A stretch of DNA of 64,000 nt from sequence record PQ571307. One strand, given 5' to 3'. Of the stretch, positions 866-2,209 are shown piece after piece (the stretch's first letter is position 1; each line of letters starts with the position of its first letter). Made by a program: the position numbers and the translations under genes. The notes beneath the pieces are model-generated. The model had not been told where the DNA came from. It saw only the letters and a program-made list of their open reading frames with translations, and made no database searches. The stretch comes from Shigella phage SF1-1.

Positions 866-1208
866 AAACTGCGTCTGCGTCGATGAGTTTGTGTTTGTTG
901 TTCCGCATGTAGTCTAAGATAAGTAGACGTTTATTGTATCTGGAGAGATTATGACCCTCTTTTCCGCCATAGTCAAAATATTTTGCAAGATCTTTACACT
1001 CAAACAAAATCAGTTCGGGAGTTTCTTCACACTGGTCTGTCTGGTACACTTGACGAATGATCATGTATACATCATCGTCTTCCGCTAAATGCTCTACTGG
1101 TCCACATCCAGCAGGAACAAATTCATAGTCCCATTTGATTAGATGTTTCTCTACTGCTTCAAAGAAGTCCATTCTTTCGTTGCGCATAATTTGAACGTCA
1201 ACTAACAT
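843..1208 (-). CDS. hypothetical protein (121 aa)
   Basis: ORF in leftward operon, overlaps neighbours at start/stop. Confidence 0.5.
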   Translation of the reverse strand: MLVDVQIMRNERMDFFEAVEKHLIKWDYEFVPAGCGPVEHLAEDDDVYMIIRQVYQTDQCEETPELILFECKDLAKYFDYGGKEGHNLSRYNKRLLILDYMRNNKHKLIDADAVYGYWWMD

Positions 1209-2209
1209 GTTTCCTCCTGTAATATTCCACCATAAAGTTTATAAATGTTTTGTATTGATGCCAGACAAGATAGCTCCACTGTTTCTGTGTAGCCGTCTGG
1301 CATAGCATATTTGCTCACTGCTTCTGTGTCTAACACCTTTTTGCAATACTTTTCTGAATTTTTGCACTGCTTCACAGTGGGGAACTGCCACACTTGAACT
1401 TGTCTCATAGTAAACACATTGCGGCTATTCTGTTCTTTGATACGGCGATCACTACTATTGGCAATACCAAACTTCAGTGCACAAAGAATACCATCTTCAT
1501 CATAAATATGATTAATGTAACATTGTTGTTGGTTTTGGCCCCCGCACTGCGGACACCCACTCCCCTTATGTAGCAAACCATCTGCACGCCCTATCTGTTC
1601 CCCGTGCTCCTTACATCCATATTTAAACTTACCCATTGTTGAAGGTTTACCGATCCATCCTACCCATATATATCCTCTCCTTTCTACTTCCTTTCTTGTT
1701 CTATAGGTGGTCTGATCCTCTGTGTATTTGTAACTTGTAGAACAGCGGCAAGGGAGACACCCACGTTTAAGATGACTTCCGGTAGCATAGAATTTACCAT
1801 CACACACCCCAGCTTCCACATATTCATCATGAGAGCAAACAGGACATTCAACCATCCATACTATATCACACCCTTTACGTTCCCCTGTATTGGTGAAAAT
1901 AGTGCCTTCCTTAAATTTACCTACCTTCATAAAATCTTGTATGTGTTGCTGGTCTGGAATAGTGATAGCTTTGCTTCTCTTTTTCGAACGTTCCCTGTAG
2001 GCGCACTTAGGACAACCTCGACCATCTTTAAAACTGTGAAACGTTGTAGTATTCCATTCATGACCATGCTCACAACGATTGATCATCTTCGTATGCACAC
2101 CTTTATCTTCTCCATACGTGCCGAGAATGGTAATCCCTTTAGCCTCAGCTATCGGCTTACATTCTTCCATATATGTTTCAATACTCTTCTTTACTGGCAT
2201 ATCTAACAA
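1202..2209 (-). CDS. multi zinc-ribbon protein with C-terminal GIY-YIG/T5orf172-like motif; putative free-standing homing-endonuclease-like protein
   Basis: 335-aa ORF; repeated GCPKC / CPVC / GCLPCRC / GCPQCG Cys pairs; C-terminal GILCALKFGIANSSDRRIKEQN resembles T5orf172/GIY-YIG core. Confidence 0.45.
   Translation of the reverse strand: MLDMPVKKSIETYMEECKPIAEAKGITILGTYGEDKGVHTKMINRCEHGHEWNTTTFHSFKDGRGCPKCAYRERSKKRSKAITIPDQQHIQDFMKVGKFKEGTIFTNTGERKGCDIVWMVECPVCSHDEYVEAGVCDGKFYATGSHLKRGCLPCRCSTSYKYTEDQTTYRTRKEVERRGYIWVGWIGKPSTMGKFKYGCKEHGEQIGRADGLLHKGSGCPQCGGQNQQQCYINHIYDEDGILCALKFGIANSSDRRIKEQNSRNVFTMRQVQVWQFPTVKQCKNSEKYCKKVLDTEAVSKYAMPDGYTETVELSCLASIQNIYKLYGGILQEETC

What the first reader, a model, noticed from the sequence alone, without database searches (positions are those of the whole stretch)
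1202..2209. Multi zinc-ribbon protein with GIY-YIG/T5orf172-like C-terminal module in the leftward early block
At least four CxxC pairs in the N-terminal two-thirds, followed by a motif (GILCALKFGIANSSDRRIKEQN) resembling the T5orf172 branch of the GIY-YIG superfamily. It may be a mobile nuclease, or a DNA-binding regulator derived from one. A second candidate selfish element in the same genome.
Basis: partly seen in the sequence, partly recalled or inferred. Interest (0 to 1): 0.4.

Follow-up and report, generated by a model that had tools for sequence, protein, structure and literature searches.

The report
Zinc-finger GIY-YIG phage endonuclease gene
This phage gene encodes a homing-endonuclease-type protein, with three zinc-finger DNA-binding modules joined to a DNA-cutting domain; the type is already described, but here it fills a hypervariable slot between almost identical flanking genes in nearly every related phage.

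Summary
Window 1202-2209 (minus strand) is one intact ORF of 332 aa, counted from the likely ATG at 2200. It lies in a Phapecoctavirus (phAPEC8-like) coliphage genome.

The N-terminal two-thirds is three tandem CapR-homology zinc modules (Pfam PF21817, 83 bits). That makes three zinc sites, not four or more ribbons.

The C-terminal 110 aa is a divergent T5orf172-like GIY-YIG nuclease domain:
- Y228, K243, G245, R253, E283 and E306 are invariant in 139 family representatives.
- A profile-profile alignment to the ICP1 T5orf172 domain (P about 1e-4) puts E283 on the proven catalytic Glu of Odn.
- The Pfam T5orf172 score for this protein itself is below the cut-off.

This architecture is already published for ICP1-type putative homing endonucleases, and RefSeq names the ortholog "endonuclease".

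At population level the flanks are 95-100% identical in about 70 related phages. The gene alleles are mostly 60-80% identical in DNA and as low as 39% in protein. They carry variable numbers of zinc modules, were intact in all 11 loci read in full, and have dN/dS about 0.2. Only one record lacks the gene, through a deletion.

Verdict: a new member of a known kind, of moderate interest.

The parts
1202..2200 (-). Endonuclease ORF, 332 aa. ATG at 2200-2198, TAG stop at 1204-1202. The ORF listing extends it to a TTG at 2209.
   Evidence: PHROG 681 'endonuclease' E=1.2e-64. The RefSeq ortholog Mt1B1_P17 gp040 is named 'endonuclease'.
1961..2200 (-). Zinc module 1 (aa 1-80): helix, three strands, helix, then a CxxC knuckle. 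Ligands are C43, H45 or H47, C63 and C66.
   Evidence: CapR PF21817 35 bits, E=1.7e-8; DUF4379 treble clef E=9.6e-5. C43, C63 and C66 are invariant. Secondary structure from the AF2 model.
1727..1960 (-). Zinc module 2 (aa 81-158): canonical CapR homology domain. Ligands are C119, C122, C151 and C153 (CxxC, 28 residues, CxC).
   Evidence: CapR PF21817 53.5 bits, E=2.7e-14. C151 and C153 are invariant; C119 and C122 are at least 90% conserved. The motif resembles the one in PMC8096241.
1535..1726 (-). Zinc module 3 (aa 159-222): same secondary-structure order as module 1. Ligands are C196, H199, C216 and C219.
   Evidence: CapR 20.5 bits, E=5.5e-4, below the 24.2-bit cut-off when scanned alone. 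C216 and C219 are at least 90% conserved in 139 representatives. AF2 secondary structure.
1205..1534 (-). C-terminal T5orf172-like GIY-YIG nuclease domain (aa 223-332). Key codons: Y228 at 1519-1517, K243-F-G245 at 1474-1466, R253 at 1444-1442, E283 at 1354-1352, D302-G-Y-T-E306 at 1297-1283.
2243..2262 (-). Terminator-like GC hairpin followed by a T-run, between the upstream AAA ATPase gene and the endonuclease gene.
   Evidence: Two such sites were found against 1.4 expected by chance, so the pattern alone is weak evidence.
2212..2219 (-). Shine-Dalgarno-like AGGAAGAG, 11 nt upstream of the ATG at 2200.
   Evidence: Read from the sequence.
1202..1218 (-). Junction with the downstream gene. 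An AGGAGG (1218-1213) and the ATG (1208-1206) of ORF 843..1208 lie inside the last codons of the endonuclease, and the two ORFs overlap by 7 nt (ATGTTAG). This explains why the last ~100 nt of the gene stay 93-100% identical between alleles.
   Evidence: The C-terminal '..EETC' is kept in all nine Phapecoctavirus proteins read (including the 39% allele, REEETC) and is absent from Justusliebigvirus VEcB.

Best explanation
The gene encodes a free-standing, homing-endonuclease-type site-specific DNA nuclease of the CapR-zinc-finger plus T5orf172 class.

Shown here:
- Three tandem CapR-homology zinc modules are followed, after a linker of about 8 residues, by a GIY-YIG-fold domain with the full T5orf172-type residue set (Tyr, Lys-x-Gly, Arg, Glu, Gly-x-Thr-Glu).
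- The gene sits in one fixed slot, downstream of an AAA ATPase gene, in essentially all Phapecoctaviruses. A Justusliebigvirus has a homolog in the same position.
- Alleles in that slot are deeply diverged, differ in zinc-module number and content, are intact and are under purifying selection.
- The same allele occurs next to different flanking haplotypes.

Inferred:
- The zinc modules together read a long, allele-specific DNA site.
- The nuclease domain cuts nearby, using R253, E283 and E306 with a metal ion.
- In mixed infections, cleavage of a co-infecting relative that carries another allele is repaired from the cutter's genome. This copies the allele and a short flanking tract into the rival (intron-less homing or marker exclusion, as with T4 seg and mob genes).
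- That process keeps many alleles circulating and produces the divergence island.
- Placement behind a terminator-like hairpin, and coupling to the downstream gene, would keep expression low and make loss costly.
For: Architecture:
- CapR is detected three times, 83.2 bits for the whole protein.
- PHROG 681 'endonuclease' matches at E=1.2e-64.
- The N-terminal modules are 34.6% identical (E=1e-20) to ICP1 ORF165. That gene appears to be the Gp165 of ICP1_2006_E, one of the putative CapR/T5orf172 homing endonucleases of PMC8096241 and PMC10448857.

Nuclease domain:
- Y228, K243, G245, R253, E283, D302, G303, E306 and T307 are invariant in 139 representatives clustered at 50% identity.
- T5orf172 is hit in 26 of 38 relatives at E<0.1 (best 1e-4) and MUG113 in 17 of 38.
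- The AF2 model has pLDDT 92.7 and the order strand, strand, helix, strand, helix, helix, strand.
- hhalign against the ICP1 T5orf172 profile gives P=9.6e-5 over 92 columns, with the motifs in register.
- E283 aligns with Odn E180. The E180A change abolishes Odn cleavage (PMC8263062).

Population:
- The ATPase gene is 95-100% identical in 64 records.
- The endonuclease gene is at least 99% identical in only 6 records and 60-80% in 87.
- The identity drop is confined to about 1300-2250.
- Alleles are 326-486 aa and range from 100% down to 39% protein identity in the same slot.
- dN/dS is about 0.2 in every module, with dS about 0.7-1.2 or saturated.
- 536P1 is 100% identical over 2101-2200 and 61-84% over most of the rest of the gene, which points to intragenic recombination.
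- DIJ07P2 carries the window's allele at 99.4% but a different intergenic and ATPase 3' haplotype (87% and 92-95%). That puts a breakpoint at the 5' edge of the ORF.
Against: - No cleavage, target site or homing event is shown.
- The classical signature of homing-endonuclease genes, a clean empty site in some relatives, is missing. Only 1 of 70 records joins the flanks directly, and that one is a microhomology deletion that also removes the ATPase stop codon.
- Near-fixation with intact, constrained alleles fits a gene useful to the phage as well as it fits a selfish one.
- This protein's own Pfam T5orf172 score is below the cut-off (14.2-16.5 bits against 20).
- Foldseek found no significant PDB match. 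The best was Slx1 at E about 1.
- The hhalign probability is only 58%.
- The region contains other small mosaic patches (about 300-900 and 4200-4400), so recombination here is not unique to this gene.
- No paralog is present in the 64-kb window.
Confidence: 0.6

Rival explanations
1. A nuclease kept because it benefits the phage. It could be an Odn-like weapon against satellites, competing phages or host DNA. The zinc-module array would then diversify in an arms race with the target, rather than the gene spreading selfishly.
For: - The slot is filled in essentially all related records, and the one exception is a deletion.
- The same slot is used in the sister genus Justusliebigvirus.
- All 11 loci read in full have an intact ORF, and dN/dS is about 0.2.
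- The DNA-binding modules diverge more (41-86% aa identity) than the nuclease domain (81-86%) among the five closest Phapecoctavirus alleles.
- There is precedent in Odn, a T5orf172 nuclease of ICP1 that destroys the PLE satellite (PMC8263062). Odn-like RepA_N-T5orf172 proteins have also been proposed for the coliphages Inny, Muut and Mt1B1_P17 (PMC10448857).
Against: - No RepA_N or other domain copied from a satellite is present; only CapR-type modules are found.
- There is no PADLOC match.
- No candidate target was identified.
- The same data fit continued allele-against-allele homing.
Confidence: 0.25
2. A DNA-binding regulator derived from a homing endonuclease. It would act like CapR as a repressor, or like I-TevI as an autorepressor, and work mainly by binding a promoter region without cutting.
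For: - CapR itself is a transcriptional repressor built from this type of zinc module (PMC8096241).
- I-TevI has a dual role as nuclease and repressor (cited in PMC10448857).
- The gene sits inside a co-directional block of small genes and is coupled to the next ORF.
Against: - CapR lacks the nuclease domain, whereas this protein keeps it.
- All catalytic-type residues are invariant over 139 diverse representatives, which is not expected if catalysis were dispensable.
- The extreme allelic diversity of the DNA-binding modules, next to conserved flanks and presumably conserved promoters, argues against a conserved operator.
Confidence: 0.1
3. The C-terminal resemblance is a chance motif, and the protein is only a multi-zinc-finger protein of unknown role.
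For: The Pfam T5orf172 score is below threshold. Foldseek is not significant. There is no sequence match to any PDB chain.
Against: - The motif residues are invariant.
- 26 of 38 and 28 of 139 relatives hit T5orf172.
- hhalign gives P=9.6e-5 with all motifs in register.
- The ICP1 T5orf172 profile picks this ORF as its best hit among 152 window ORFs.
Confidence: 0.04

Closest known systems
ICP1 CapR-domain/T5orf172 putative homing endonucleases (Gp165, Gp174, Gp121, Gp53, Gp130; Netter et al. 2021, PMC8096241; Barth et al. 2023, PMC10448857)
   Same: Same architecture: N-terminal repeated CapR-type zinc-finger DNA-binding modules and a C-terminal T5orf172-type GIY-YIG domain. There is direct sequence homology of aa 21-198 to ICP1 ORF165 (34.6% identity, E=1e-20). 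Module number varies and modules are shuffled, as those papers describe.
   Different: The nuclease domain belongs to a different, more divergent T5orf172-like subfamily. A profile-to-sequence search against Odn and ORF165 is not significant, and only the profile-profile comparison reaches P about 1e-4. Modules 1 and 3 use a Cys/His ligand pattern (C-x-H or C-xx-H, then CxxC). The gene is single-copy in this 64-kb window, whereas ICP1 carries many such genes.
Odn (ICP1 Gp88), an experimentally proven T5orf172 nuclease (PMC8263062)
   Same: A C-terminal T5orf172-type domain. The Arg and Glu (Odn E180, here E283) and the later x-E-x-F/V motif are conserved. Specificity comes from a separate N-terminal DNA-binding domain.
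   Different: Odn uses a RepA_N domain copied from its satellite target, whereas this protein uses CapR zinc modules. No target is known here.
PLE CapR, the capsid-operon repressor (PMC8096241)
   Same: It carries the same zinc-finger DNA-binding domain family (PF21817), with a CxxC...CxC motif needed for DNA binding.
   Different: CapR is a small (15.5 kDa) protein with a single CapR domain and no nuclease domain. This protein has three modules and an apparently intact nuclease.
T4 free-standing GIY-YIG homing endonucleases (SegA-G) and I-TevI (from established knowledge, and as cited in PMC10448857)
   Same: A GIY-YIG catalytic domain is tethered to a separate DNA-binding region. The genes are free-standing between conserved phage genes, and spread is expected through marker exclusion in mixed infections.
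   Different: The domain order is reversed, with the nuclease at the C-terminus here. DNA binding is by zinc-module arrays rather than NUMOD or helix-turn-helix elements. The linker is very short. The active site is of the T5orf172 type, with Lys-x-Gly instead of Tyr-x-Gly.
SLX1/HIGLE GIY-YIG structure-specific nucleases (PDB 7wme, 6seh, 7cq2)
   Different: Sequence identity is only 14-15%. These proteins carry a C-terminal RING/PHD-type zinc finger, work with the SLX4 partner and recognise DNA structure rather than sequence. They are fold relatives, not family members.

Membership tests
GIY-YIG superfamily, T5orf172 branch (Pfam PF10544 / MUG113 PF13455) | GIY-YIG fold: three-stranded sheet with flanking helices in the order strand, strand, helix, strand, helix, helix | tested here: met
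GIY-YIG superfamily, T5orf172 branch (Pfam PF10544 / MUG113 PF13455) | Motif Tyr in strand 1 ('GIY') and x-x-Gly in strand 2 ('YIG'; K-I/F-G in T5orf172) | tested here: met
   Y228, K243 and G245 are invariant in 139 representatives. They lie in the two predicted strands.
GIY-YIG superfamily, T5orf172 branch (Pfam PF10544 / MUG113 PF13455) | Catalytic Arg at the start of helix 1, and catalytic Glu (I-TevI E75, Odn E180) | tested here: met
   R253 and E283 are invariant. E283 aligns with Odn E180 and with the ORF165 Glu in an HMM alignment and in hhalign. The register rests on weak to moderate alignments (5 bits; P=9.6e-5).
GIY-YIG superfamily, T5orf172 branch (Pfam PF10544 / MUG113 PF13455) | Score above the curated Pfam gathering threshold | tested here: not met
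   T5orf172 scores 14.2 bits for the whole protein and 16.5 bits for the domain alone, against a cut-off of 20. MUG113 scores 15.2 against 22.3. Among relatives, 26 of 38 match at E<0.1 and 28 of 139 at E<0.01, with best E 6e-5. It is therefore a divergent sister subfamily rather than a model-defined member.
GIY-YIG superfamily, T5orf172 branch (Pfam PF10544 / MUG113 PF13455) | Metal-dependent DNA cleavage | not testable with these tools
   Needs biochemistry.
CapR homology domain (PF21817) | Profile match above the gathering threshold | tested here: met
   83.2 bits against a cut-off of 24.2, in three stretches. The modules scanned alone score 35, 53.5 and 20.5 bits.
CapR homology domain (PF21817) | Conserved CxxC ... 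CxC cysteines (24-26 residues apart in PMC8096241) | tested here: met
   Module 2 has C119-xx-C122, then 28 residues, then C151-x-C153, all conserved. Modules 1 and 3 have a variant pattern: C-x-H or C-xx-H, then CxxC.
CapR homology domain (PF21817) | Sequence-specific DNA binding | not testable with these tools
   Shown for PLE CapR by EMSA (PMC8096241), not for this protein.
Free-standing homing endonuclease gene | Presence/absence polymorphism with intact empty sites among close relatives | tested here: not met
   A synthetic empty-site query matched as one piece in only 1 of 70 records, EP57. EP57 has a deletion of window 1219-2288 with 2-nt microhomology, which removes the ATPase stop codon. 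Two apparent truncations are runs of N.
Free-standing homing endonuclease gene | Gene history decoupled from its flanks (transfer or replacement by recombination) | tested here: met
   Flanks are 95-100% identical while the gene is 60-80% identical, with dS about 1. The 39% allele of nieznany sits in the same slot. In DIJ07P2 the same allele lies next to a different haplotype. Related proteins occur in Vibrio, Klebsiella, Serratia, Aeromonas and Pectobacterium phages.
Free-standing homing endonuclease gene | Cleavage of a cognate site in genomes lacking the gene or carrying another allele, and biased inheritance in crosses | not testable with these tools
   No target site could be inferred. 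Identity dips to 91-96% in the 200-300 bp next to the gene. This is compatible with co-conversion or target-site variation but does not prove either.
Odn-like anti-satellite nuclease | DNA-binding domain homologous to a satellite replication initiator (RepA_N) | tested here: not met
   Only CapR, DUF4379 and DUF723-type modules were detected.
CapR-type domesticated repressor | Loss of the nuclease domain or of its catalytic residues | tested here: not met
   The nuclease domain is present with an invariant catalytic set.

The most novel reading that the evidence does not exclude
The slot downstream of the AAA ATPase may be a permanently occupied nuclease locus maintained by selection. Interchangeable zinc-module arrays would be reshuffled to retarget a conserved T5orf172-like cutter. 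Alleles would then act as weapons in phage-against-phage exclusion, or against satellites, rather than as a passing selfish element. This would be a natural, modular, programmable zinc-finger nuclease system evolving by module exchange.
Probability: 0.2. Interest if true: 0.6.

Novelty: new member of a known kind. Interest (0 to 1): 0.33.

Why it matters
The find extends the CapR-zinc-finger/T5orf172 nuclease class, studied so far mainly in the vibriophage ICP1, to the phAPEC8-like coliphages that are used as therapeutic and model phages. It also defines a divergent T5orf172-like subfamily that current Pfam thresholds miss.

The many sequenced relatives form a natural experiment: one slot, near-identical flanks, and many intact alleles with three or more zinc modules. 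With it one could test whether such genes persist by allele-against-allele homing or because they help the phage, and how modular zinc-finger arrays encode DNA specificity.

There is a practical point too. The gene is a recombination and assembly trouble spot: two public genomes have runs of N exactly here.

Tried and rejected
- **PDB sequence search:** only a spurious E=0.6 repeat-protein hit.
- **NCBIfam:** nothing meaningful.
- **PADLOC:** no match.
- **Family C-terminal profile against Odn and ICP1 ORF165:** nothing at a database-scale search space. It gives weak alignments of 3.5-5.3 bits when the search space is just those two sequences, so I used these only for motif register.
- **Word-indexed homolog search with the Odn T5orf172 domain:** nothing found.
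- **Paralogs in the 64-kb window:** none by tblastn or HMM.
- **Apparent truncated alleles in vB_EcoM_01 and MRostami-2023b:** I first read these as decay, then rejected that, because both are runs of N in the assemblies.
- **EP57 as an 'empty site':** rejected as an ancestral empty site. It is a deletion from inside the gene's last codons to 10 nt inside the ATPase gene, and it creates a fusion ORF.
- **Modules 1 and 3 as recent duplicates:** BLASTP finds only the G-x-GCP-x-C knuckle. They share secondary-structure order but are old repeats.
- **Promoter scan:** fewer sigma-70-like sites than expected by chance, and none between the hairpin and the start codon.
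Full report
**What is there**

The window is a Phapecoctavirus (phAPEC8-like, Stephanstirmvirinae) coliphage. Its first 5 kb are 99.2% identical to Escherichia phage BI-EHEC and 98.6% to Mt1B1_P17. The finding coincides with a single ORF at 1202..2209 on the minus strand.

I take the ATG at 2200 as the start, which gives 332 aa. An AGGAAGAG lies 11 nt upstream, several homologs begin at the aligned Met, and ETEC-TG is annotated from that ATG. RefSeq calls the Mt1B1_P17 ortholog 'endonuclease' and one GenBank record says 'putative homing endonuclease'.

The gene sits in a long run of co-directional small genes. Upstream is a 379-aa AAA ATPase gene (2279..3418), followed by a terminator-like hairpin at 2243-2262. 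Downstream, its stop codon overlaps the ATG of the next ORF (ATGTTAG), and that ORF's AGGAGG lies inside the endonuclease's last codons.

**The observation**

The four CxxC motifs and the quoted C-terminal motif are all present. They are not chance, because the cysteines are conserved across the family.

The cysteines form three zinc sites:
- Site 1: C43, H45 or H47, C63 and C66.
- Site 2: C119, C122, C151 and C153.
- Site 3: C196, H199, C216 and C219.

C148, the first Cys of 'CLPC', is not conserved. The conserved pattern in the middle module is CxxC, 28 residues, CxC.

**The N-terminal two-thirds**

Pfam assigns the CapR homology domain (PF21817) in three stretches, with 83.2 bits for the whole protein. 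Scanned separately, the three modules score 35, 53.5 and 20.5 bits. Module 1 also touches the DUF4379 treble-clef model and module 3 touches DUF723.

The full-length AlphaFold model is confident (pLDDT 93.2, pTM 0.58). Modules 1 and 3 share the same order of elements: helix, three strands, helix, then the zinc knuckle. By sequence they share only the knuckle.

The CapR domain was defined from the PLE satellite repressor CapR. Its four cysteines are needed for DNA binding. It was recognised as the DNA-binding part of a set of putative ICP1 homing endonucleases that end in a T5orf172 domain (PMC8096241). Barth et al. found CapR, DUF723 or DUF4397/DUF4379-type zinc-finger modules (the paper gives both numbers) in 87% of 229 T5orf172 homing-endonuclease genes, often repeated and shuffled (PMC10448857). 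Residues 21-198 of the window protein match ICP1 ORF165 directly (34.6% identity, E=1e-20).

**The C-terminal 110 residues**

This was the part that needed testing, because the protein's own T5orf172 score is below Pfam's cut-off (14.2 bits for the whole protein, 16.5 for the domain alone, against 20). Five lines of evidence agree.

1. **Conservation.** In 38 homologs, and then in 139 representatives clustered at 50% identity, the invariant columns of the domain are Y228, K243, G245, R253, E283, D302, G303, E306 and T307. An exhaustive search with this domain gave 460 representatives at E<=1e-3, and the domain was C-terminal in nearly all of those listed.
2. **Family-level profile hits.** T5orf172 is hit by 26 of 38 relatives at E<0.1 (best 1e-4) and MUG113 by 17 of 38. 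In the wider set, 28 of 139 hit T5orf172 at E<0.01.
3. **Fold.** The isolated domain model has pLDDT 92.7 and pTM 0.85, with the order strand, strand, helix, strand, helix, helix, strand.
5. **Profile-profile comparison.** My family alignment against the C-terminal domain of the ICP1 ORF165 family gives P=9.6e-5 over 92 columns with every motif in register. The same register puts E283 on Odn E180. Mutating that Glu abolishes Odn cleavage in vitro and in vivo (PMC8263062).

Two caveats apply. Foldseek gave nothing significant. The hhalign probability is only 58%. I conclude that this is a divergent T5orf172-like branch of the GIY-YIG superfamily with an intact catalytic set.

**Population picture**

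| Feature | Identity between related phages |
|---|---|
| AAA ATPase gene | 95-100% in all 64 records that have it |
| Endonuclease gene (DNA) | at least 99% in 6 records, 80-90% in 2, 60-80% in 87 |
| Endonuclease protein | from 100% down to 39.4% in the same slot (nieznany, Schickermooser, REC, Ro121lw) |

Sliding-window comparison with twelve fetched loci shows that the identity drop is confined to about 1300-2250. The last ~100 nt of the gene, which carry the ribosome-binding site and start of the next gene, stay at 93-100%. Alleles are 326 to 486 aa long because the number of zinc modules varies.

All 11 loci that could be read in full have an intact ORF. dN/dS against the window allele is about 0.2 in each module. 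dS is about 0.7-1.2 or saturated, far above what the 0-5% flank divergence allows. So the alleles are old, functional lineages that have been exchanged into a young, conserved backbone. They are not a decaying gene or a local mutation hot spot.

There is recombination inside the gene and at its edges:
- 536P1 is 100% identical over 2101-2200 and 61-84% over most of the rest of the gene.
- DIJ07P2 carries the window's allele (99.4%) next to a different intergenic and ATPase 3' haplotype (87% and 92-95%).
- ETEC-TG, PNJ1809-36 and Mt1B1_P17 share a 100% identical block from about 900 to beyond 3100. All three drop well below that further left (62-96% across 200-900).

Among the five closest Phapecoctavirus alleles, the DNA-binding modules are more diverged (41-86% aa identity) than the nuclease domain (81-86%).

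**Presence or absence**

I queried a synthetic empty site made of the left flank joined to the ATPase 3' end. Only 1 of 70 records, EP57, joined the flanks in one piece.

EP57 lacks window 1219-2288. The junction has 2 nt of microhomology. The deletion removes the ATPase stop codon and creates a fusion ORF. It is therefore a deletion derivative, or an assembly problem in a 130-kb record, and not an ancestral empty site.

Two other apparent truncations are runs of N. The sister genus Justusliebigvirus has a homolog in the same position after the ATPase gene. The classical on/off polymorphism of a homing-endonuclease gene is therefore absent. The slot is essentially always filled, and what turns over is the allele.

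**Mechanism**

Shown: the architecture, the conserved active-site residues, the fold, the hypervariable but constrained alleles, and the breakpoints at the gene's edges.

Inferred: the three zinc modules read a composite DNA site, and the tightly tethered GIY-YIG domain cuts next to it. In mixed infections a rival genome is cut and then repaired from the cutter's genome, which transfers the allele with a short flanking tract. Identity dips to 91-96% over the 200-300 bp on either side of the gene, which is compatible with this. This is the mode known for T4 seg and mob genes and proposed for T5orf172 genes by Barth et al.

The main rival is that the nuclease is kept because it benefits the phage, as an Odn-like weapon or exclusion factor. 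Near-fixation and purifying selection favour this rival. The absence of a domain copied from a target is neutral to negative for it. A purely regulatory role is least likely, given the invariant catalytic residues.

**Comparison and novelty**

The class is known (PMC8096241, PMC10448857, PMC8263062) and the gene is already labelled endonuclease in RefSeq. Three things are new here:
- The nuclease assignment for this divergent subfamily is now documented.
- The zinc-site anatomy is corrected.
- The 'always-filled hypervariable slot' behaviour across about 70-95 genomes is described.

I rate it a new member of a known kind, with interest about 0.33.

Noticed in passing
window 112-654 (-): This 180-aa ORF is a NADAR-domain protein (PF08719, E=1.8e-35). 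RefSeq labels the Mt1B1_P17 ortholog 'GTP cyclohydrolase II' (COG3236). From general knowledge, NADAR proteins are ADP-ribosyl hydrolases, so a role against DarT-type DNA ADP-ribosylation is conceivable. The annotation looks outdated.
   Followed up: partly
window about 300-900, 4200-4400 and 5900-6100: Other short patches drop to 60-90% identity between phages that are otherwise 97-100% identical. This co-directional block of small genes is mosaic in several places, not only at the endonuclease gene.
   Followed up: no
L008 (PP129558 vB_EcoM_01) about 3640-4200; L009 (OQ031492 MRostami-2023b) about 3330-4250: Both public genomes have runs of N exactly over the endonuclease gene. This suggests reference-guided assemblies that failed at the hypervariable allele. 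At first sight the gaps look like gene truncation.
   Followed up: yes
L003 (OR544956 vB_EcoM_EP57) 4351-4369: This is the only record without the gene. A 1070-bp deletion (window 1219-2288) with 2-nt microhomology fuses the AAA ATPase ORF in frame to the downstream ORF, annotated as one 1506-nt CDS. The record is 130 kb and carries many tiny CDSs, so its sequence quality is doubtful.
   Followed up: yes
search hits H20, H43, H64-H66 (Campylobacter phages B15, A150, A145, A110a) and H17/H39 (Acinetobacter phage ABPW7): In this region B15 and ABPW7 are about 93-98% identical to E. coli Phapecoctaviruses, and A150, A145 and A110a carry a phi92-type allele (about 70% DNA identity over half the gene). 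The host labels are probably wrong or reflect contamination.
   Followed up: no
L011 1216-2526 (ICP1 ORF165) compared with window 1205-2200: The zinc-module region is clearly homologous (E=1e-20), but the C-terminal nuclease domains belong to different T5orf172 subfamilies that only a profile-profile comparison links. This is an example of DNA-binding and nuclease domain shuffling between distant phages.
   Followed up: partly
window 2243-2262: The GC-rich hairpin between the ATPase and endonuclease genes scores as a terminator on both strands. The intergenic region around it (2210-2278) is itself variable between alleles: 74-97% identity, or 100% when the allele is shared.
   Followed up: partly
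Mt1B1_P17 genome (NC_052662), outside the region examined: Barth et al. 2023 report an Odn-like RepA_N-T5orf172 protein in Mt1B1_P17, Inny and Muut, with putative E. coli satellites as targets. No such gene was detected in this 64-kb window with the ICP1 T5orf172 profile, so it probably lies elsewhere in the genome.
   Followed up: partly
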